Sequence record: SRR31156797_2750
Length of the DNA stretch: 23,317 bases
Direction: 5' to 3' (one strand)
This document shows, one piece after another, positions 1 through 13,240 of the stretch. The notes beneath the pieces are model-generated. The model had not been told where the DNA came from and ran no database searches. It saw nothing but the letters and a program-made list of their open reading frames with translations. Every line of letters begins with the position of its first letter. Positions within the stretch are counted from its first letter, which is position 1. Both the position numbers and the translations under genes were made by a program.

Positions 1-713
1 ATAATCCGGACCTCATACAAGATGCACACGATGTTGAAGTAGAGACCTCCTATGGCTCCCCTTCTGCTCCGCTTAAGGTAGGAACAATTGCAGGGAAAGA
101 AGTTGTTCTGCTTGCACGACATGGTCGGGAACACACAATTCCACCTACTTTCGTAAACTATCGTGCTAACATTCAGGCGCTGAAGAACGCTGGCTGCTCG
201 TTAATTCTTGCGACAACCGCCTGTGGCTCTTTGCGTGCTGGAATTGACCGTGGACACCTTGTTATTCTTGATCAATTTATTGATTTTACTCGCCGCAGAC
301 CGGTCTCTTTTTATGAAGAATTTGAACCGCATGGAGCTGTTCATACCGGTATGGCTGACCCCTTTGATAAAACTTTGCGTGGTGTATTCAATCAGGCATG
401 CGACTCTCTTGATCTCACACACCACAAGACAGGTACTGTCATTACCATTGAAGGTTCTCGATTTTCCACTCGGGCGGAATCCAACATGTTTCGCATGTGG
501 GGTGCCGATGTAATCAACATGTCTGTCGCACCCGAATGCATACTCGCCAATGAGGCCGGTGTTCCTTATGCCGCAGTAGCCATGTCCACTGATTACGATT
601 GTTGGAAGACTGATGAAGCCCCTGTGACTTGGGAAGAAATCCTTGAAGTTTTTCAGGGAAATGTGGAAAAAGTTACTTCTTTGCTTGTCGAAGTTATTAA
701 AAATATAGATTGA
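1..713 (+). CDS. mtnP: S-methyl-5'-thioadenosine phosphorylase (5' end outside window)
   Basis: Frame 3 is open from base 3 (NPDLIQDAHDVEVETSYGSPS...LLARHGREHTIPPTFVNYRANIQALK...TTACGSLR) into ORF 231..713. It carries the MTAP-type motifs LARHG, VNYRANI, TIEGSRFSTRAES, GADVINM and MSTDYDCW. Confidence 0.9.
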   Translation, partial: NPDLIQDAHDVEVETSYGSPSAPLKVGTIAGKEVVLLARHGREHTIPPTFVNYRANIQALKNAGCSLILATTACGSLRAGIDRGHLVILDQFIDFTRRRPVSFYEEFEPHGAVHTGMADPFDKTLRGVFNQACDSLDLTHHKTGTVITIEGSRFSTRAESNMFRMWGADVINMSVAPECILANEAGVPYAAVAMSTDYDCWKTDEAPVTWEEILEVFQGNVEKVTSLLVEVIKNID

Positions 714-718
714 TTTTA

Positions 719-2068
719 ATGAATACGAATCAAACCACTGTATCCGTTCCAACCAAATGTGATCTGCTTGTTCGAGCAGATGTAGTTGTTACACAGGATG
801 CGGACCGTCGGGTTATTACTGGTGCCGGCGTAGCTGTCACCGATGGCCTTGTCGTAGAAGTCGCTGAATATAATGAACTTGAAGCCAAATTCCAACCGAC
901 TCAACGATTGGATATGTCTGGCAAAATGCTTATGCCTGGACTTGTCAACGGACATACGCATTTACCCATGACGCTTTTTCGCGGTTATGCCGATGATCTA
1001 CCACTCATGGAATGGCTTGAAGATCATATCTGGCCCGTGGAATTCCAATTAACCGATGAAATTCTCACCATCGGAGCAGACATTGGTTGTTGTGAGCTAA
1101 TCAAGACTGGCTGCACCGCTTTCCTTAATGGCTATTTTCACGAGTATGTCACTGGTGACGCGGCCAATGCAGCCGGTTTGCGAGCGGTTTTAGGCGAAGG
1201 TTTCTTTCATTTCCCTTCACCGCATTTCCCCACGGCCAATGATTGCTGGGATACAATACGCACCTTGAATGCCCGCTATGATAAAAATCCCCGCATACGA
1301 ACGGCAGTCACCCCACATGCCGCGTTCACCGTTAACCCAGATGAATTACAGGCCAGCTTTGAACTGGCGATTGACCTGGACATTCCGTGGCAGGTGCATC
1401 TGGCTGAATCTTCTGTAGAAACATCTGTCTGTCTGGAGAAGCATGGTAAGCGCCCTGTGGAACTCCTCCGCTCTCTTGGCTTGTTGACATCAAGAACCAC
1501 CCTTCATCATTGTGTTGATGTAACGGATGATGAGATCGCGCTTCTTGCTGATAATGACGTGAATGTCGTTCATAATCCGGCTTCCAATCTCAAATTGTGT
1601 TCAGGCCTTTCGCCGGTACAAAAGATGGTGGATGCAGGAGTGACGGTTGGCTTGGGAACTGATGGGGCTTCAAGTAATAATCAATTGAATATGTTTCGTG
1701 ATATGGCTTTGGCGGCTTTGATAGGCAAAGTCCGTCATGAGGATGCTTCGGCAGTAAACGCACAAACCGCTCTTGATATGGCAACTATCAATTCAGCCCG
1801 TTGTCTCGGTTGGCCTGAACTTGGACGTATCGAAGAGGGGTGCCCGGCGGACATGATTGCACTTGATCTAGGCAGTCCAAATCTTATGCCAATGTTCTCG
1901 CCTGTCTCTCATGCCGTATATGCGGCAACAGGCATGGAAGTGTGCATGACCATGGTCGCTGGGAAAATTCTCTATCTTTATGGAGATTTCAGAACTATCG
2001 ACGTGCAAGCCTTGCGAGACAACGCTTTTAGTGCGGTTGAGTGGGTTCGATCCAAGGCGAAAAAATAA
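719..2068 (+). CDS. mtaD: Amidohydrolase, MTA/SAH deaminase (MtaD/DadD) family
   Basis: Motifs PGLVNGHTHLPM (HxH), LMEWL, PHA, VHLAES, HNPASNLKL, GTDGASSNN; lies next to mtnP. ATG at 719 chosen over the TTG at 710. Exact substrate is inferred. Confidence 0.8.
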   Translation: MNTNQTTVSVPTKCDLLVRADVVVTQDADRRVITGAGVAVTDGLVVEVAEYNELEAKFQPTQRLDMSGKMLMPGLVNGHTHLPMTLFRGYADDLPLMEWLEDHIWPVEFQLTDEILTIGADIGCCELIKTGCTAFLNGYFHEYVTGDAANAAGLRAVLGEGFFHFPSPHFPTANDCWDTIRTLNARYDKNPRIRTAVTPHAAFTVNPDELQASFELAIDLDIPWQVHLAESSVETSVCLEKHGKRPVELLRSLGLLTSRTTLHHCVDVTDDEIALLADNDVNVVHNPASNLKLCSGLSPVQKMVDAGVTVGLGTDGASSNNQLNMFRDMALAALIGKVRHEDASAVNAQTALDMATINSARCLGWPELGRIEEGCPADMIALDLGSPNLMPMFSPVSHAVYAATGMEVCMTMVAGKILYLYGDFRTIDVQALRDNAFSAVEWVRSKAKK

Positions 2069-2531: not shown

Positions 2532-2586
2532 GTTTGTATGAATCGTATTTTGGACTATTTTATTGAAAATGAACCGGAGGCCCCAC

Positions 2587-3810
2587 ATGGACGCTCTCTT
2601 TTCCGAACTGGACAAACAGTCTGAAGCCGTTGTCGAACTGCAAACTAAGCTTACTGCTATTCCTGCCCTTGGGCCCATGAATGGTGGTGACGGTGAAAAA
2701 GACAAAGCTGATTTTCTGATCGCTCACCTCAAGTCCATGGGTATCGAAGATATCCGCGAGTATAATGCCCCAGCCAAGGACGTTTCCTGCGGTTACCGCC
2801 CGAACGTTGCGGCCATCATTCCTAGCAAAAACACGGAAAAGACCTTGTGGGTCATCTCTCATATCGACATTGTTCCTCCGGGCGACTTGTCTTTGTGGGA
2901 CACTGATCCTTACACGTTGGTACGCGATGGTGATAAAATCATCGGACGAGGCGTTGAGGACAATCAACAGGGTATTGTTTCTTCGCTGCTGACGGCACAG
3001 GCTCTGCTCGATTTGAAAGTTACCCCGGAAGTCAACTACGGCATGATTTTCGTTGCTGACGAAGAGACCGGCAGCGGCTTCGGTTTGGAGTATTTGGTTA
3101 ATGAACATGAAGATATGTTCGCCAAAGACGATCTTTTCCTGGTTCCCGATTTCGGTGAACCTACTTCCGAAATGGTTGAAGTCGCTGAAAAGTCCATGTT
3201 TTGGCTCAAAGTTACTGTTAAGGGCAAACAATGCCACGCATCAACCCCATATCAGGGTGTGAACTCTTTGGTTGCCGCTTCCGATTTCATTCTTCGTATT
3301 AAAGAGCTTGAAAGCATTTATGATGCCGAGAACCCCATTTACGATCCGCCCCGCTCCACATTTCAGCCGACCATGAAAGAGGCAAATGTAGCCAATATCA
3401 ATACTTTGCCTGGCCGTGATGTTTTTTATATCGATAGCCGTGTCATGCCTGAATATGATGTTGAAGAAATCCTGAAGACCATCCGTAGTTTTGGTTCTGA
3501 AGTGGAAAAAACGCATGGCGTAACCATTTCCTATGAGACCGTACAGGCCGAACAGGCGGCTCCCTCCACACCGGTCGATAGCGAAATAGCTGTCAAGGCG
3601 ATCAAATCCATCAAAAAGATTTACAACAACAATCCTCGTACCGTTGGCGTTGGTGGTGGCACTGTTGCTGCTTTCCTGCGCCGTAAAGAGTATCAGGCTG
3701 TTGTCTGGGCTACTTTGAATCATTGCGCTCACCAGCCCAATGAATGGGCCTCCATCAAGAACACCATCAATGATGCCAAAGTCATTGGTGATCTTCTGCT
3801 GACCAAATAA
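2587..3810 (+). CDS. M20 family metallohydrolase (DapE/ArgE-like)
   Basis: SD GGAGG at 2576-2580 before ATG 2587. Motifs SHIDIVP, GRGVEDN, ADEETG, GKQCHAS, AHQPNE. Confidence 0.85.
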
Positions 3811-6669: not shown

Positions 6670-8187
6670 GTGTTAACACTGGTCCTTATCGCTACTGTCG
6701 GTGCGTGGATAGGTTTTGCCAATTCCGTGTTCCATTTCCCTCTAGCCGCATTAGCCTTTCCTTTAGGACTTGCCTGGATTGGACTTCGGGCTACATCCTG
6801 GAAAAAGGCTCTCAAATACAGTTGGCTGGCCGGGACATTGGCTGCCATGGGTTGCTATTATTGGATGGTTATTCCTGTCCAGATATATGGCGGACTTCCA
6901 TGGTTTATAGCTCTCCCCTGTCCGGTTTTATTAGCTGCCTTCATGAGCCTTTATTTTGGTTTGTTTTCAGTGGGCATGTACCACGCAGGCAAACAAATTG
7001 ACGGCATCCCATTATGTTTATTGGCAGGTTTTTCCTGGGCAACTATGGAAATGCTTATGGGAACATTATTTTCAGGCTTTCCATGGATCAATCTGTCTTC
7101 TGCATTCGCCACGTGGCCTTTTGCCATTCAAGGCGCGTCTGTACTCGGAGCCTATGGCCTTTCCGGCGTATTTGCGATGTTGGCAGTGGCTTTACTGCTT
7201 TACAGCACATATAAAAGCACTCTCTGGTTTGCTATAGGATTGACTGTTTGCCTAACGGTGTTTGGTTTCTATAGGATAACGACTTTTGATACCGGCGTAT
7301 CGAGTTTCCCAATTTCTCTGATTCAAGGAAACGTTGATCAAGGGAAAAAGTGGGTGCCATCTTATCAGGCTTCAACCGTCAAGAAATACAGCAAGCTGAC
7401 CTTGGAGGCCATGCGCAACCATAAGTCTGTTTTGGCTATCTGGCCCGAAACTGCCATGCCATTTTATTTGCAAAATATGACTCCACTGCGCAAAGGTGTT
7501 GAAATATTGGCCAGAGAAGCCAAGATCAATATTATTACAGGATCTCCGGCGTATCATGTGACCAACATGAAAAAGAATAATTACGTGCTCTACAACCGGG
7601 CATGGCTTATGGATACAACGGGAAGAACAACTCAGCACTACGATAAAGAACACCTTGTTCCATTTGGTGAATATATGCCTTTCGAAGAATGGATGCCGTT
7701 TGAAAAGCTCGTTCAGGCTGCTGGTAATTTTCTTCCTGGCACAGACAATCATCCGCTCAAAGTGAATGGCGTTGCTCTTGGAGTACTCATTTGTTATGAA
7801 GCCATATTCCCTGATTTAGCGCAAAAACAGGTTGAACGAGGGGCAAGCGTTCTGGTGAATATCAGTAATGACGCATGGTTTGGAAACACCTCGGCCCCAC
7901 AACAACACCTCAATTTATCAATCATGCGCGCCGTTGAACAAGGCCGTTGGCTGGCAAGAAGCACCAATACCGGCATTTCTGCATTTGTTGATCCTGTTGG
8001 TCGAATTGCAACTATGGGAAATCAATTTCAAGCTGAAAGTTTGAGTTTGAGCATTGCACCTTTGAACAAAACGACTGTGTATCATCAAATAGTTGGCTGG
8101 CTAACCTTCTTTATTTACACCATGACCATTGCTGCATTCGGATTTATCGGCTACACAGCCTTTCGACATAAAGGAAAAATTGAATAA
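6670..8187 (+). CDS. lnt: Apolipoprotein N-acyltransferase
   Basis: Multi-TM N-terminus with GFPW; nitrilase-domain motifs QGN, WPETA, YDKEHLVPFGEY, ICYEAIF, NISNDAWFG, RSTNTGIS. Confidence 0.97.
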   Translation: MLTLVLIATVGAWIGFANSVFHFPLAALAFPLGLAWIGLRATSWKKALKYSWLAGTLAAMGCYYWMVIPVQIYGGLPWFIALPCPVLLAAFMSLYFGLFSVGMYHAGKQIDGIPLCLLAGFSWATMEMLMGTLFSGFPWINLSSAFATWPFAIQGASVLGAYGLSGVFAMLAVALLLYSTYKSTLWFAIGLTVCLTVFGFYRITTFDTGVSSFPISLIQGNVDQGKKWVPSYQASTVKKYSKLTLEAMRNHKSVLAIWPETAMPFYLQNMTPLRKGVEILAREAKINIITGSPAYHVTNMKKNNYVLYNRAWLMDTTGRTTQHYDKEHLVPFGEYMPFEEWMPFEKLVQAAGNFLPGTDNHPLKVNGVALGVLICYEAIFPDLAQKQVERGASVLVNISNDAWFGNTSAPQQHLNLSIMRAVEQGRWLARSTNTGISAFVDPVGRIATMGNQFQAESLSLSIAPLNKTTVYHQIVGWLTFFIYTMTIAAFGFIGYTAFRHKGKIE

Positions 8188-9306
8188 TGTTTGAATATCC
8201 TGAACTTAAAGCTGCTTCCCAAGACCTTCTTGGCCAATTCGAAACCCTTTGGGGGCGTCTTTGACTACGTCCAGACCAAAGAACGACTCGACGCTATAGA
8301 AATAGAACTTTCCAAGCCCGGCGCGTGGGATAAGCCTGAAGCACTTACCCCTGTGCTCAAAGAAAAAAGTCAACTTTCCACCAAGCTTGGCATGTATGAC
8401 GCGCTGTCGGAGGCCAAAGAAGATCTTGAGGCATGGCTTGAATTGGCTCAAGAATCGCCCGACGACGAATCCTTGACGGCTTTGGATGGCCAGGTGTCCT
8501 TGTTGAGAGAACGACTGGCAGGGACGGAATTGGCGACAATGTTCGCCTTTGAGCATGATAAAAGCAATGCCATTCTTGAAATCCATCCTGGAGCTGGTGG
8601 CGTAGAATCGCAAGATTGGGCGGAAATGCTCCTTCGCATGTACAATCGTTATGCGGAACGCAAAGGATTCAAGGTCTCTCAACTCGACTTTCAGGCCGGA
8701 GATGAAGCAGGAATTAAATCCGTTACCCTTCAAATCGAAGGCTTGTTTGCCTACGGGTTACTTAAAGGCGAAGCTGGCGTACATCGTCTGATACGCATCT
8801 CACCTTTTGATTCATCAGGTCGACGTCATACGTCTTTTGCATCGGTGGATGTTTATCCCGATATGGACGATGATATTGAAATCGAAGTCAAAGATGAAGA
8901 TATACGAATAGACACTTTTCGTTCGAGTGGCCCCGGTGGACAATCAGTCAACAAAACCAGTTCTGCTGTCCGAATCACACATATCCCCACTGGTATTGTA
9001 GCTCAATGTCAGAATGAAAAATCACAACACAGAAATAAGGCTACAGCTTTACGTTTGTTAAAAGCGCGACTCTATGAGCAAGAGTTGAAAAAGATTGAAG
9101 AAAGCCGCAGGCAGGATTATCAGGCCAAGGAAGCCATAGCCTGGGGAAGTCAGATACGCACTTATACGCTCCAACCTTATCGTTTGGTCAAAGACCACCG
9201 GTCCAACAGTGAAAGCGGCAATGTTGACGCATTTTTGGACGGAGATCTGGACGAAATGATCCGAAACCACCTACTCTATATCCATGCCCAAGGAAAAAAA
9301 GATTAA
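8187..9306 (+). CDS. prfB: Peptide chain release factor 2, expressed via +1 programmed frameshift
   Basis: ATG 8187 overlaps the lnt TAA and reads MFEYPELKAASQDLLGQFETLWGRL, then CTT TGA C (8259-8265); the +1 frame continues DYVQTKERL... with SPF and GGQ motifs. About 372 aa. Confidence 0.97.
8250..8265 (+). other. RF2 +1 frameshift cassette
   Basis: TGGGGG-CGT-CTT-TGA-C: internal SD-like G run, 3-nt spacer, then the canonical CTT TGA C. Confidence 0.95.
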
Positions 9307-10976: not shown

Positions 10977-11006
10977 TTGACGAAAAGAGTTATTTTTCGG
11001 CATAGT
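10977..11006 (+). promoter_or_regulatory. Candidate sigma70 promoter of the IHF/HU gene
   Basis: TTGACG (10977-10982), 18-nt spacer, CATAGT (11001-11006), with an AT-rich upstream tract. Confidence 0.45.
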
Positions 11007-11097
11007 TAGTGAGAATTTTGGAGAATGACTTCATTTCCATTTTTTCGTAGAGCCATTTGCTGGTGCTACGAATCAAGCAATGTTTCAGGGGGAAACC

Positions 11098-11373
11098 ATG
11101 AATAAAAGCGAATTGATCAAGGCTCTGTCCGAACAGAAAAAAATGCATGTTGACGAGGCCACCAAAGTGGTCGGAGCTTTCGTCGATTCCGTCAAGGAAG
11201 CCCTTCGACGTGGCGACCGTGTCGAAATCAGAGGTTTTGGCAGCTTTAAAATCAAAGATTACGAAGGTTACACCGGACGCAATCCCAAAACCGGGACCGT
11301 TGTTCAAGTCAAACCTAAAAAACTTCCCTTCTTCCGTCCTGGTAAAGAGTTGAAAGAATTCATCAACCAGTAG
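11098..11373 (+). CDS. ihfB: HU/IHF family DNA-binding protein (IHF beta-like)
   Basis: GGGGGA SD before ATG 11098. MNKSELI...GDRVEIRGFGSF...GRNPKTG...PFFRPGKELKE resembles IHF-beta more than HU. Confidence 0.75.
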   Translation: MNKSELIKALSEQKKMHVDEATKVVGAFVDSVKEALRRGDRVEIRGFGSFKIKDYEGYTGRNPKTGTVVQVKPKKLPFFRPGKELKEFINQ

Positions 11374-11374
11374 G

Positions 11375-12235
11375 ATGAAGCGACTTTCATACTGCCTTTT
11401 TTTGGCGGTCTGGCTATTCGCCTGCACTAACGCGTGGGCGAAAGAGCCGGTCCTGACTTTTCTTTACTCGGCAAATACGTATGGCACGGTGCGTCCATGT
11501 CCATCATGAGGTGGTAAAACCCTTGGTGGTGTGGCCCGGCGGGCCACGTATTTTTTTGACGTTCATAAAACATCGGCACCAAGATTTGTGGTTTCCGGTG
11601 GGTGGGAATTTATGCGTCCACAAAGCAAACTCCCGACCCCGGACGTTCTGCGTTCTTTGATCAAGGCATACAACATCATGTCCTACGATCTTGGTTTTAT
11701 CCCCAAAGAAGAAGCTAAGGCCCTGAAACAAGCTCAAGTAGCTGTGGGTTCATGGCAAAAAACTTCTGAAGAAGCTCCTATCACAATTTTAACAACCAAG
11801 AACGGTGATAGGATCGGATTTGTCCGATTTCCTTCCTTGGGCCAAGATGAAGATATACCAGGGGCTGAACTCATTTCACGCATTGGACGACAGATTAAAT
11901 CATTACGTAATAAAGTTCGTCTCATTGTCGGCTTGTCTGGTTGGGGATGGCTTGGAGAGAATGAATATTTGATGAAAAATCCTAAGTTCGTCCCTGATCT
12001 TCTTTTGGGAAGCGGACGAGGATCAGGGCTGAATGGTCGAGTTTTGGCTAATGACCGTTGTATCTGGGTTCGTTCTTATGACAAAGGACGGAGCATTTGC
12101 GAAATACAGATATACGAATGGCCTGATCGAAAGAATTCGTTTGCCTGGACTGTCGCGAAGAATTATAACACATCTTCAATAGGGTTAAACGATTCCTATA
12201 AGGACAATCCGGAAGTGGCCGCTATATTACAATAA
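11375..12235 (+). CDS. Secreted UshA/5'-nucleotidase N-domain-like probable selenoprotein (CxxU, U45), 286 aa
   Basis: ATG 11375 gives MKRLSYCLFLAVWLFACTNAWA-KEPVLTFLYSANTYGTVRPCPS[TGA 11507-11509]GGKTLGGVARRAT..., in frame with ORF 11531..12235. Has a signal peptide, a GGxARR motif and a downstream hairpin. Confidence 0.85.
11507..11549 (+). other. Sec codon and SECIS-like hairpin
   Basis: TGA followed by stem GTGGCCC (11531-11537), loop GGC, GGGCCAC (11541-11547), extendable by two G-U pairs. The G-initiated loop starts about 28 nt after the TGA. Confidence 0.7.
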
Positions 12236-12279
12236 TGGCTTACATCCGTACGTTTCATAGAAACAAGAAGGAGATGACT

Positions 12280-13161
12280 ATGGAATTCAGAGGAGCTTAT
12301 ACTGCCCTCTCGACCCCGTTTATAAATGGGGAAATCGATGAATCTGCATATCGAGATTTTATCGAATGGCAGATTGAGCAGGGAATTGACGGACTGGTAC
12401 CATGCGGTACTACTGGTGAAGCCGCAACGTTGACTCATGAAGAACAAGGGCGGATCATCAAAATTTGCGTGGAGCAGGCTAAAGGCCGTGTACAGGTTGT
12501 GGCCGGTGCCGGTTCCAACTCCACAAAAGAAGCCATCGCATTAACTCAGATGGCTAAAGACGCCGGCGCAGATGCTGCCCTGCAAATCACACCCTACTAC
12601 AACAAACCGACGCCCGGTGGATTGGTCGAACACTTCAAAGCCATCGCAGCAGAAGTCTCCATGCCTTTCGTCATTTACAATGTCCCGGGTCGAACAGGTT
12701 TGAACCTTCTCCCAGCTCATCTCAAGATGATTGTGGACGCTGTTCCCGAAACGGTTGCTGTTAAAGAGGCAACGGGAGATATGAATCAAGCCGCTCAGGT
12801 CATTGAACAGTGTGGTAAAGATTTCAACTTGCTGTCTGGGGATGATTTCACTGTCCTTCCTCTGCTTTCAGTCGGTGGTGTGGGTGTTATATCCGTCGTT
12901 TCAAACATCATGCCCAAAACAATGAGTGACATGTGCAAAGCTTTTTTTGACAAGGATCACGCAACAGCTTTGGATTTGAGTTTAAAAATGGCTCCAGTTA
13001 ATCGAGCCCTGTTCATGGAGACCAACCCTATTCCTGTCAAAACATCCCTGGCCATGATGGGTATTTTTAAAGATGCACAGTTCCGTCTGCCAATCGTTCC
13101 CTTGCAGGATGAGAATAAACCCAAACTGAAATCCGTGCTGAAAACCGCCGGTATTTTGTAA
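12280..13161 (+). CDS. dapA: 4-hydroxy-tetrahydrodipicolinate synthase
   Basis: AAGGAG at 12268-12273 before ATG 12280. Motifs GTTGE, GAGSNST, PYYNKP, YNVPGRT, VKEATG, SGDD, ETNPIPVK. Confidence 0.97.
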   Translation: MEFRGAYTALSTPFINGEIDESAYRDFIEWQIEQGIDGLVPCGTTGEAATLTHEEQGRIIKICVEQAKGRVQVVAGAGSNSTKEAIALTQMAKDAGADAALQITPYYNKPTPGGLVEHFKAIAAEVSMPFVIYNVPGRTGLNLLPAHLKMIVDAVPETVAVKEATGDMNQAAQVIEQCGKDFNLLSGDDFTVLPLLSVGGVGVISVVSNIMPKTMSDMCKAFFDKDHATALDLSLKMAPVNRALFMETNPIPVKTSLAMMGIFKDAQFRLPIVPLQDENKPKLKSVLKTAGIL

Positions 13162-13209: not shown

Positions 13210-13240
13210 AAAAGGACGACCAAATGGTCGTCCTTTTTTT
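13210..13240 (+). terminator. Intrinsic terminator 2 (possibly bidirectional)
   Basis: AAAAGGACGACC-AAAT-GGTCGTCCTTTTTTT. Confidence 0.8.

What the first reader, a model, noticed from the sequence alone, without database searches (positions are those of the whole stretch)
11375..12235. Hidden secreted CxxU selenoprotein on a degenerate UshA/5'-nucleotidase fold
Seen: the ORF track starts at 11531, but ATG 11375 (1 nt after the IHF stop) gives a clean signal peptide (AWA|K, or a possible lipobox LFAC). The frame runs to 12235 with one TGA, in R-P-C-P-S-U-G-G, followed by a G-looped hairpin at SECIS-like distance. Known: UshA-like selenoprotein families have been reported, and CxxU is a redox motif. 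Inference: the calcineurin-like metal ligands look replaced (DxH to NTY, DxGD to SGGWE, no GNHE, SH to SG, GGHSH to GSGRG) and there is no C-terminal nucleotidase domain. It is therefore probably not a nucleotidase but a periplasmic thiol/selenol redox or metal-binding protein of unknown function, embedded in an ihf-X-dapA unit.
Basis: partly seen in the sequence, partly recalled or inferred. Interest (0 to 1): 0.8.

Follow-up and report, generated by a model that had tools for sequence, protein, structure and literature searches.

The report
Catalogued exported UshA-like selenoprotein gene
The in-frame TGA is a real selenocysteine codon in an exported protein that keeps the 5'-nucleotidase fold but not its metal site; the family is already catalogued, and its function has never been tested.

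Summary
ATG 11375 to TAA 12235 is one 286-codon gene with a single in-frame TGA (11507-11509) in R-P-C-P-S-U-G-G, followed by a hairpin that meets the published bacterial SECIS rules.

The read-through protein scores 318.7 bits (cut-off 140) against NCBIfam NF049981, "UshA-like (seleno)protein family 2". A 2026 review already lists this family as a CxxU selenoprotein. This scan also reached the same verdict on another genome (e1-3027919). The finding is therefore correct but already known.

Main support:
- The nearest held genome has selA, selB, selD and tRNA-Sec.
- 174 of 301 sampled genomes of the order carry the family, nearly all with TGA. Cysteine forms sit at the same position.
- The hairpin shows covariation and fixed synonymous codons in Sec forms only.
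- An AlphaFold model (pLDDT 93.7) matches only the N-terminal domain of 5'-nucleotidases and SoxB (Z about 24.8). The aligned metal-ligand motifs are replaced.

The lipobox alternative is rejected; a conserved A-x-A signal-peptidase site fits better.

New here:
- Order-wide synteny ihfB-X-(dapF)-dapA.
- Clean absence of X from one genus that keeps selA.
- In this genus, a U-tract after the hairpin that is fixed at synonymous sites, which makes the SECIS look like an intrinsic terminator.

Function remains inferred; I favour periplasmic selenol chemistry.

The parts
10977..11006 (+). Promoter-like site (TTGACG-18-CATAGT) upstream of ihfB. It is only a candidate operon promoter.
   Evidence: a consensus scan only. 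It found 6 sites against 3.8 expected from shuffles, so this is weak.
11098..11373 (+). ihfB-like gene (integration host factor beta / HU family). Its stop TAG lies 1 nt before the start of X.
   Evidence: NF001222, 98.7 bits (below its cut-off of 115), matching residues 7-96 of ORF 11080-11373. I infer the start at ATG 11098 from the model match and the GGGGGA upstream. A homologue lies just upstream of X in 50 of 53 related loci.
11375..12235 (+). Full coding sequence of the UshA-like selenoprotein family 2 member: 286 residues, one Sec, stop TAA 12233-12235.
   Evidence: NF049981 scores 318.7 bits against a cut-off of 140, model positions 1-262 on residues 27-286.
11375..11440 (+). Signal peptide, residues 1-22, with predicted signal peptidase I cleavage at A-W-A|K.
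   Evidence: The sequence shows it. An A-x-A-type site is visible in most relatives shown, while Cys17 is not conserved. The model has a lone helix at residues 2-18, and structural matches start at residue 22-25. No signal-peptide predictor was available.
11498..11500 (+). Cys42 codon (TGT), first residue of the C-P-S-U motif.
   Evidence: At least 90% conserved in A1. Replaced by Val in L008 and by Ile in L068.
11507..11509 (+). UGA read as selenocysteine 45.
   Evidence: Invariant Sec/Cys column in A1. One TGA in 137 of the 150 listed family matches and no stop in the other 13. Four Cys forms were read directly (TGC).
11529..11549 (+). SECIS hairpin: core stem 11531-11537 with 11541-11547, loop GGC 11538-11540. 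It is encoded by the V-A-R-R-A-T codons.
   Evidence: 90.5% of cells pair, against 83.8% in shuffles and 28.5-48.5% when the partner is slid. Four of 8 pairs have changes on both sides.
11550..11559 (+). U-rich tail (ATTTTTTTGA) directly after the hairpin. Together the two read as an intrinsic-terminator-like site inside the gene.
   Evidence: Its function is not shown.
12280..13161 (+). dapA (4-hydroxy-tetrahydrodipicolinate synthase), the downstream gene of the unit.
   Evidence: TIGR00674, 342.6 bits. I infer the start at ATG 12280 from the model match beginning at residue 21 of ORF 12235-13161 and the GGAG upstream.
13210..13237 (+). Terminator-like hairpin with a T-run after dapA. It is the likely end of the ihfB-X-dapA unit.

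Best explanation
Positions 11375-12235 encode one exported, 286-residue selenoprotein of the curated family 'UshA-like (seleno)protein family 2'.

How the gene is read: UGA 11507-11509 is read as selenocysteine because the mRNA forms a SECIS hairpin 22-38 nt further on. The hairpin is built from the codons of the conserved peptide [V/L]-A-R-R-A. It should recruit SelB carrying Sec-tRNA(Sec).

Export: the protein is exported by the Sec pathway and cut after A-W-A.

Fold: the mature protein is a single 5'-nucleotidase/SoxB-type N-terminal domain. Its metal-binding His, Asp and Asn residues have been replaced.

Active centre: the residues conserved across the family still cluster in the old active-site motifs (N34; G75/E78; S188-x-W190-G191; D208...G212-x-G214-x-G216). 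They are joined by an invariant Sec45 in a P-C-P-x-U-G loop that follows motif I in the sequence.

Inferred mechanism: Sec45 is the reactive centre, a selenolate nucleophile or redox group. It would act on a sulfur, selenium or disulfide substrate docked in the former metal pocket. Cys42 would usually act as the resolving residue and form a selenenylsulfide. Periplasmic electron carriers would then re-reduce it.

Shown: gene structure, Sec decoding signals, family membership and fold. Partly shown: loss of the metal ligands (motifs I-III by alignment, IV-V by reading). Inferred: the chemistry, the substrate and the export itself.
For: Family and gene:
- NF049981 scores 318.7 bits against a cut-off of 140, over the full model.
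- The same gene, with one TGA, is in the nearest genome.

Sec trait:
- In that genome selB scores 398 bits, selA 615, selD 342 (itself with a TGA) and tRNA-Sec 81.8.

Sec/Cys pairs:
- 13 of the 150 listed family matches have no stop and the other 137 have one TGA.
- Four Cys forms were read as TGC at the aligned codon.
- Among 24 full-length database relatives picked by motif, 22 show Cys at that place by eye, one shows Trp and one neither.

SECIS:
- Covariation test.
- In 50 distinct Sec sequences the codons GCC CGG CGG GC[C/T] are almost fixed, while neighbouring Gly codons vary freely. All 4 Cys forms depart from these codons.
- The geometry meets the rules quoted in PMC13188914.

Fold:
- AF2 pLDDT 93.7, pTM 0.89.
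- Foldseek top hits are 5'-nucleotidases, E 3.5e-14.
- VIA-align gives Z 24.8 to SoxB 2wdc (rmsd 2.4, 237 aligned) and to 5'-nucleotidase 2z1a (rmsd 2.9, 247 aligned). Only residues about 27-361 of these roughly 500-residue chains are covered.

Metal-site loss:
- Profile alignment puts N-T-Y where 2z1a has D-T-H, and s-p-e-e where the snake enzyme has G-N-H-E.
- There is no Pfam Metallophos hit.

Redox leaning:
- 6 of 30 superfamily loci (the C-G-U type) carry four C-terminal CxxCH haem motifs.
- CxxU is the usual redox motif in the selenoprotein tables of PMC2398784 and PMC13188914 (passages seen).
Against: - No experiment of any kind exists for this family. The searches found only table rows.
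- Cys42 is Val or Ile in 2 of 55 relatives, so a Cys-Sec redox pair is not obligatory.
- Family 2 has no haem domain and no conserved redox partner gene. Its conserved neighbours (ihfB, dapF, dapA) say nothing about redox chemistry.
- I had no model coordinates, so I could not measure whether Sec45 faces the old metal pocket.
- C-P-x-C-G also resembles a metal-chelating knuckle (a recalled motif), which fits the rival explanation.
- The window's own assembly is not held, so the sel genes were checked only in a genome that shares 79% of sampled words.
Confidence: 0.6

Rival explanations
1. Metal-site swap. The dimetal centre of the phosphoesterase fold has been replaced by a Cys42/Sec45 'knuckle' (C-P-x-U-G) that chelates a soft metal ion. 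The protein would then be a periplasmic metal-binding protein, metallochaperone or new metalloenzyme, not a thiol/selenol oxidoreductase.
For: - The motif C-P-[ST]-[U/C]-G lies between two short strands (42-43 and 49-50) in the model. It resembles the CPxCG knuckles of rubredoxins and zinc ribbons; that resemblance is recalled, not tested.
- Acidic and polar residues conserved in the old motifs (N34, E78, E195, D208) could complete a coordination sphere.
- Sec is a metal ligand in other periplasmic enzymes of sulfate reducers (established knowledge, recalled).
Against: - There is one knuckle only, so two ligands at most.
- Cys42 is Val or Ile in L008 and L068, and superfamily cousins have V-K-A-U or D-S-G-U.
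- No metal transport or maturation genes lie nearby.
Confidence: 0.2
2. The protein still works as a phosphoesterase or nucleotidase, or as a SoxB-like hydrolase, with Sec only modulating it.
For: The fold match to 5'-nucleotidases and SoxB is strong (Z about 24.8). The GG-ARR helix motif is shared with real 5'-nucleotidases.
Against: - The metal ligands of motifs I-III are replaced in the alignments. No His survives in the motif IV/V positions of the family consensus.
- There is no Pfam Metallophos hit.
- The substrate-binding C-terminal domain is absent.
Confidence: 0.04
3. Catalytically dead scaffold. The domain is a binding or structural periplasmic protein, and Sec/Cys45 only forms a structural or regulatory bond.
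For: Many enzyme folds that lose their metal ligands become pseudoenzymes (general knowledge). The gene is cleanly absent from one whole genus that keeps selA, so it is dispensable.
Against: - Keeping a costly Sec codon and its SECIS in 137 of 150 listed matches argues for a reactive residue.
- Conservation is concentrated in the old active-site motifs.
- Haem-fused cousins exist.
Confidence: 0.1
4. The TGA is a true stop. A 44-residue peptide and a separate 234-residue protein (GTG 11531) are made, and the hairpin with its U-tract is simply the ihfB terminator.
For: Gene callers produce exactly this. Database relatives mostly start after residue 50. A 90%-identical NCBI record is a 207-aa 'hypothetical protein'. 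The hairpin scores as terminator-like.
Against: - Residues 27-44 are part of the curated model and are conserved.
- Cys codons replace the TGA in relatives.
- The truncated ORF would lack a signal peptide and strand 1 of the fold.
- Synonymous constraint on the hairpin is limited to the Sec forms.
Confidence: 0.02

Closest known systems
NCBIfam NF049981, 'UshA-like (seleno)protein family 2'. Listed as 'UshA-like selenoprotein family 2, CxxU, GenBank annotated' in the table of PMC13188914.
   Same: Full-length match at 318.7 bits against a cut-off of 140. Same CxxU motif, size and single domain.
   Different: Nothing distinguishes it; this is a member. The sources give no function. The synteny, SECIS anatomy and distribution reported here are additions, not differences.
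NCBIfam NF041198, 'UshA-like (seleno)protein' (UshA_like_PCGU), the 'COG0737 UshA-like, CxU' selenoproteins of the GOS survey (PMC2398784).
   Same: The same remodelled 5'-nucleotidase N-domain, with a signal peptide and Sec in the loop after motif I followed by GG-ARR.
   Different: - Only 40.4 bits against a cut-off of 275, over residues 7-105.
- Motif C-G-U rather than C-P-x-U.
- The C-G-U forms seen here (6 of 30 loci) are 446-480 residues long with four CxxCH motifs.
- Many cousins keep an N-D and D-x-G-D pattern that family 2 lacks.
Bacterial and eukaryotic 5'-nucleotidases (UshA, CD73, T. thermophilus 2z1a) and the sulfate thiohydrolase SoxB (2wdc).
   Same: Fold of the N-terminal metallophosphoesterase domain: Z 22-25, rmsd 2.4-3.4 Å, 237-248 residues aligned. 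The shared GG-[VL]-ARR helix start. Periplasmic or extracellular location.
   Different: - Metal-ligand motifs are replaced (A1).
- No C-terminal substrate-binding domain.
- A Sec/Cys-bearing loop is present instead.
- SoxB and the nucleotidases tie in Z, so no special kinship to SoxB can be claimed.
Bacterial SECIS elements of the consensus model (PMC13188914, Fig. 2 legend; the fdhF type is the studied example).
   Same: Hairpin inside the coding region, 3-nt G-first apical loop, 7-9 bp upper stem, 28 nt between UGA and loop.
   Different: In this genus the hairpin is followed by a U-tract of 6-7 U that is fixed at synonymous sites, so it looks like an intrinsic terminator. The selD SECIS of the nearest genome has no such tail.

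Membership tests
NCBIfam NF049981 UshA-like (seleno)protein family 2 | Score above the curated cut-off over the whole model | tested here: met
   318.7 bits against 140; model positions 1-262 on residues 27-286.
NCBIfam NF049981 UshA-like (seleno)protein family 2 | CxxU (or CxxC) motif at the family's Sec position | tested here: met
   C42-P-S-U45. The column is invariant Sec/Cys in 46 aligned members. The review table gives CxxU.
Bacterial selenoprotein (any) | SECIS hairpin downstream of the UGA that fits the bSECIS model | tested here: met
   Loop GGC, 7-bp core stem, 28-nt spacing, -17.3 kcal/mol. Covariation and Sec-specific codon fixation. Not bound or assayed.
Bacterial selenoprotein (any) | selA, selB, selD and tRNA-Sec in the genome | tested here: met
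   All four are over their cut-offs in G001, the nearest held genome with 79% shared words. The window's own assembly is not held.
Bacterial selenoprotein (any) | Selenium actually incorporated at the UGA | not testable with these tools
   Needs 75Se labelling or mass spectrometry.
NCBIfam NF041198 UshA_like_PCGU (CxU type) | Score above the cut-off; P-C-G-U motif; usual long form of about 519 positions | tested here: not met
   40.4 bits against 275, N-terminal 100 residues only. The motif is C-P-S-U. There are no CxxCH motifs.
5'-nucleotidase / UshA family (metallophosphoesterase N-domain plus 5'-nucleotidase C-domain) | N-terminal domain fold | tested here: met
   Foldseek E 3.5e-14. VIA-align Z 24.8, rmsd 2.9, 247 aligned to 2z1a.
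5'-nucleotidase / UshA family (metallophosphoesterase N-domain plus 5'-nucleotidase C-domain) | Dimetal ligand motifs (DxH, GDxxD, GNHE, H, GHxH) | tested here: not met
   Motifs I-III are replaced in the profile alignments to 2z1a and 5h7w. Motifs IV-V were read from A1 as S-x-W-G and G-S-G-x-G against motifs I recalled. No Pfam Metallophos hit. No residue-level structural superposition was available.
5'-nucleotidase / UshA family (metallophosphoesterase N-domain plus 5'-nucleotidase C-domain) | C-terminal nucleotide-binding domain | tested here: not met
   The protein ends at residue 286. Matches cover only residues about 27-361 of chains of 495-565 residues.
SoxB sulfate thiohydrolase | Dimanganese site and the sox gene context | tested here: not met
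   The fold is tied for best match (2wdc, Z 24.8). The His and Asp ligand motifs are absent, and the neighbours are ihfB and dapA.
Bacterial lipoprotein | Conserved lipobox with an invariant Cys at +1 | tested here: not met
   Cys17 is absent in L038, L053, L060 and L061 and in other genera. The -1 residue is often V, H or T.

The most novel reading that the evidence does not exclude
In this genus the SECIS hairpin has a second job. Together with the U-tract fixed behind it, it would act as an intrinsic terminator or attenuator 156 nt after the ihfB stop. Most transcripts of the abundant nucleoid protein gene would then end inside the selenoprotein gene. Only a fraction, possibly dependent on SelB or selenium supply, would go on to make the selenoprotein and dapA.
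Probability: 0.2. Interest if true: 0.6.

Novelty: already known. Interest (0 to 1): 0.3.

Why it matters
- The gene is a clean example of a selenoprotein that ordinary gene callers cut in two. A 90%-identical NCBI record is a 207-residue 'hypothetical protein'.
- The family is common in its order (174 of 301 sampled genomes) yet has no known function.
- It shows a metallophosphoesterase fold that gave up its metal ligands and gained a selenocysteine loop. That would be an unusual route to new periplasmic chemistry in sulfate reducers.
- If the terminator-like SECIS proves functional, it would link selenocysteine decoding to transcription of neighbouring housekeeping genes.

Tried and rejected
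- Rfam at gathering thresholds found nothing in the window. This says little, because no matching bacterial SECIS family may be in the library.
- Pfam gave only a sub-threshold YedD hit.
- Sequence search of the PDB with the single protein gave nothing useful. With the family profile it gave only weak hits.
- Single-sequence folding energies of the hairpin region are not better than shuffles.
It found nothing with the window protein. With a same-genus protein it returned only 14 distant relatives from Deltaproteobacteria/Thermodesulfobacteriota and spirochaete MAGs.
- The protein-atlas search did not accept the read-through protein. That lead was dropped.
- Lipoprotein reading: rejected.
- Twin-arginine export: considered, because many genus members start M-R-R. 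Rejected as a family feature, because other genera have M-R-L, M-L-R or M-K-H.
- Loss of X explained by loss of the Sec trait: rejected. Genus g3 has selA in 39 of 48 genomes but X in 0 of 48.
- Pairing of the U-tract with the A-rich codons just after the UGA: rejected, because the Lys codon there varies freely (AAA, AAG, CGN).
- A functional link to lysine/DAP synthesis from synteny alone: left as unexplained. In g3, ihfB and dapA are adjacent without X.
Full report
**What is in the sequence.** The ihfB-like ORF ends with TAG at 11371-11373. One base later, ATG 11375 opens a frame that runs to TAA 12233-12235 with a single TGA at 11507-11509. Read through, it gives 286 residues. They begin MKRLSYCLFLAVWLFACTNAWA|KE and carry V-R-P-C-P-S-U-G-G-K at residues 39-48. 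Under table 11 only a 234-residue GTG ORF (11531-12235) is listed. Downstream of the TGA lies the hairpin G-U-G-G-C-C-C/GGC/G-G-G-C-C-A-C. Its core stem is 11531-11537 with 11541-11547, and its loop is 11538-11540.

**It is a member of a curated family.**
- NCBIfam NF049981, "UshA-like (seleno)protein family 2", matches at 318.7 bits (cut-off 140) over all 262 model positions, on residues 27-286. The stretch before the TGA is therefore part of the family model.
- The sister model NF041198 (UshA_like_PCGU) reaches only 40.4 bits against a cut-off of 275.
- Pfam has no significant hit.
[quoted passage not shown] I saw the passages only.
- The CxU-type "COG0737 UshA-like" family goes back to the 2008 GOS survey (passages) and appears in a 2022 review table.
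- Full-text searches for "UshA-like" with "selenoprotein" returned only these three papers. A search for selenoproteome, Desulfovibrio and nucleotidase returned none. I found no statement of function.
- This scan has noted UshA-like selenoproteins 150 times. It noted this very family between ihfB and dapA on another genome, with the same verdict (e1-3027919).

**Selenocysteine decoding.** The window's own assembly is not held. The nearest genome, G001, shares 79% of sampled words and has the identical protein with one TGA. It also has selB (398 bits), selA (615), selD (342, itself with a TGA) and tRNA-Sec (81.8 bits), all over their cut-offs.

**Distribution and Sec/Cys pairs.**
- In an even sample of the phylum, 4 of 401 genomes pass the family cut-off, while 179 of 401 have weaker superfamily hits, most with one TGA.
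- Within the order, 174 of 301 genomes pass. This includes 27 of 27 in the window's genus and 0 of 48 in genus g3.
- Of the 150 listed matches, 137 have one TGA and 13 have none.
- I fetched 20 further regions and read 55 distinct proteins. Of these, 51 have TGA and 4 have TGC (Cys) at the aligned codon. Two of the Cys forms sit in tandem with a Sec copy (L064, L065), and both copies pass NF049981.
- A search of 1.84 billion cluster representatives found only 269 at E <= 0.001. Most start after residue 50, so they were cut at the Sec codon.
- Among 24 full-length relatives picked by a motif pattern, 22 show Cys at the Sec place, one shows Trp and one neither. This was judged by eye from the printed motifs.
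- A 90%-identical, 207-residue fragment is filed at NCBI as "hypothetical protein [Pseudodesulfovibrio sp.]". That is my only tool-based hint to the genus.

**The SECIS.**
- The hairpin is built from the codons of [V/L/M]-A-R-R-A-[T/G/S].
- In 50 distinct Sec-form sequences, Ala+9 is GCC in 48. Arg+10 is CGG in 42, with the variable third base lying in the loop. Arg+11 is CGG in 45. Ala+12 is GCC or GCT only.
- The four nearby Gly codons use all four synonyms.
- All 4 Cys forms depart from these codons (TCG/TCC/GCG, CGC, GCG), and their hairpin is broken.
- On the ungapped alignment A2, the 8-pair helix has 90.5% of cells paired. Column shuffles give 83.8% (0 of 500 reach the observed value), and slid partners give 28.5-48.5%.
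- Four pairs have changes on both sides, for example G-C/C-G at columns 40-56 and C-G/U-A in L008.
- Related sequences can inflate such shuffle tests. The slid controls and the Sec-versus-Cys contrast are the stronger arguments.
- The loop starts 28 nt after the UGA and begins with G-G. The stem has 7-9 pairs and the local MFE is -17.3 kcal/mol. All four rules quoted in the review's Fig. 2 legend are met.
- Against this, folding energy alone is not better than shuffles (z -0.68 and -1.14).
- The GG-[VL]-ARR peptide is also present in genuine 5'-nucleotidases: YGGVARRAT in 5h7w and VGGVARRVA in 2z1a. The SECIS therefore uses the naturally palindromic codons of an older structural motif. This last point is my inference.

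**Export.**
- The N-terminus has a basic start and a hydrophobic core. An A-x-A-type site is visible in most relatives shown: AWA|K, ARA|G, AHA|E, AQA|Q, AGA|K.
- The Cys of the proposed lipobox is missing in 4 of the 15 same-genus sequences in A1 and in other genera. The residue before it is often V, H or T, so the lipoprotein reading is rejected.
- M-R-R is not conserved outside the genus, so I infer Sec-pathway export.
- No signal-peptide predictor was available.

**Fold and active site.**
- With the 46-sequence alignment A1, AlphaFold2 gives pLDDT 93.7 and pTM 0.89.
- Foldseek finds 141 PDB chains at E <= 0.001, led by 5'-nucleotidases (5h7w_B, E 3.5e-14, TM 0.67).
- VIA-align gives tied top scores to SoxB (2wdc: Z 24.8, rmsd 2.4, 237 aligned, chain residues 35-361) and to T. 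thermophilus 5'-nucleotidase (2z1a: Z 24.8, rmsd 2.9, 247 aligned, residues 28-320). CD73 follows at Z about 23.5 and E. coli UshA at about 22.4.
- Model residues 25-286 always map to the N-terminal domain only.
- The family profile aligns L-T-I-L-Y-S-A-N-T-Y-G...P-C-P-S-C-G-G-K-T-L-G-G-L-A-R-R with L-T-L-V-H-T-N-D-T-H-A-H...L-S-G-E-K-T-P-V-G-G-V-A-R-R of 2z1a. So D becomes N34, H becomes Y36, and the Sec loop is the loop between motif I and the first helix.
- It also aligns y-d-l-g-l-l-s-p-e-e with Y-D-A-M-A-L-G-N-H-E of the snake enzyme, so GNHE is lost. These alignments are weak (E 0.0026-0.078).
- For motifs IV and V (S188-x-W190-G191; D208-x-L-L-G-S-G212-x-G214-x-G216) I rely on A1 and on motifs I recalled.
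- Invariant columns in A1 are U45, G51, G52, R55, R56, A57, P153, G191, E195, G212 and G238.
- Columns at 90% or more include N34, G37, P41, C42, P43, G46, G75, E78, S188, W190, D208, G214, G216, G218, W231 and R233.
- Many of these conserved residues fall in the old active-site motifs. This argues for a re-tooled site and against a dead one.
- I had no coordinates, so the position of Sec45 relative to that pocket is unmeasured.

**Context.** I compared the window's neighbours with 53 related loci by tblastn. These are not independent: 21 come from one genus.
- An ihfB homologue lies just upstream of X in 50 loci, and dapA lies downstream within the fetched flank in 49.
- The wider order of genes is lnt-prfB-(GGDEF-ParA-like)-ihfB-X-dapA.
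- In all 11 loci from other lineages where I examined the gap between X and dapA, it holds a 277-297-residue ORF. Two of these were confirmed as DapF, at 281 and 256 bits.
- In 5 of 5 complete genomes of genus g3, ihfB is followed directly by dapA with no X.
- That genus keeps selA in 39 of 48 genomes, and the order keeps it in 273 of 301.
- X is thus a dispensable insert or loss in a stable housekeeping cluster. The synteny gives no clear functional clue.

**Mechanism.** The selenoprotein identity is close to certain; I put it at about 0.97. The chemistry is inferred.
- I favour (about 0.5-0.6) a periplasmic selenol enzyme. Sec45 would attack a sulfur, selenium or disulfide substrate held in the former metal pocket, and Cys42 would usually resolve the adduct as a selenenylsulfide.
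- For this reading: CxxU is the commonest redox motif among catalogued selenoproteins; Sec is maintained at high cost; and 6 of 30 superfamily loci (the C-G-U type, 446-480 residues) carry four CxxCH haem motifs, which implies electron transfer.
- Against it: Cys42 is Val or Ile in 2 of 55 sequences; family 2 has no haem and no partner gene; and C-P-x-C-G also looks like a metal-chelating knuckle (recalled). The knuckle resemblance supports the metal-binding rival, which I put at about 0.2.

**An unexpected detail.**
- The consensus scan calls 11529-11549 plus ATTTTTTTGA a terminator-like site. It found 4 such sites in the region against 2.7 expected, so this is not significant on its own.
- In the genus, all 20 distinct Sec sequences have at least 6 T in the 8 bases after the stem. 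In other genera 12 of 30 have at least 5. In the Cys forms 0 of 4 do.
- The T-run is fixed at synonymous sites. Tyr+14 is TAT in 21 of 21, Phe+15 is TTT in 20 of 20 and Phe+16 is TTT in 14 of 15. Elsewhere in the same genes TTT:TTC is 106:80 and TAT:TAC is 103:86.
- The selD SECIS of G001 has no such tail.
- There is no room for a terminator between ihfB and X. The hairpin may therefore double as an attenuator for ihfB transcripts.
- One full-text search for SECIS with "intrinsic terminator" found a single paper, a review on viral recoding judged from its search listing only. No RNA run was available to test the idea.

**Verdict.** The object is an already catalogued selenoprotein family of unknown function. 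Interest is modest. It lies in the untested chemistry of a metal-free 5'-nucleotidase fold and in the terminator-like SECIS.

Noticed in passing
window 11529-11559: The SECIS hairpin is followed by ATTTTTTTGA and scores as an intrinsic-terminator-like site inside the gene. In the genus the T-run is fixed at synonymous sites (TAT 21/21, TTT 20/20 and 14/15). It is weaker in other genera and absent from the 4 Cys forms.
   Followed up: partly
window 8187-9306: prfB (release factor 2) carries the classical programmed +1 frameshift. ATG 8187 is followed in frame by CTT TGA C at 8259-8265, with GGGGG just upstream. The long ORF 8191-9306 is in the +1 frame. This is a second UGA-dependent recoding event in the same window.
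   Followed up: partly
L064 2991-4770 and L065 2990-4773 (genus g259): Tandem paralogues downstream of ihfB: a Cys form (P-C-P-T-C-G-P) directly followed by a Sec form (P-C-P-S-U-G-G). Both are over the NF049981 cut-off. This is a natural Cys/Sec pair within one genome.
   Followed up: partly
L098-L102 (genus g3): In 5 of 5 complete genomes looked at, ihfB is followed directly by dapA with no X gene. The genus has X in 0 of 48 genomes but selA in 39 of 48.
   Followed up: yes
L008 and L068; also L016 and L034: The first Cys of the motif is not universal: P-V-P-T-U (L008), P-I-K-A-U (L068), P-V-K-A-U (L016) and D-S-G-U (L034). Sec itself is never replaced by anything except Cys in the loci read.
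   Followed up: no
L018, L022-L024, L026, L031: Superfamily cousins with a P-C-G-U motif (446-480 residues) carry four C-terminal CxxCH haem-binding motifs. The C-P-x-U forms do not.
   Followed up: partly
L083 (second copy in G565) and second copies in G554, G587, G664, G666: Some genomes have a second family-2 copy away from the ihfB-dapA locus. None of the window's neighbour genes lies within 3 kb of the L083 copy.
   Followed up: no
window 710-2068 and 2563-3810: Two hydrolase genes give sub-threshold hits to 'selenium metabolism' models. A TRZ/ATZ-family amidohydrolase hits SsnA (TIGR03314) at 193.5 bits against a cut-off of 455.5. An M20 family hydrolase hits YgeY at 94.7 against 321. 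These are probably just family resemblance.
   Followed up: no
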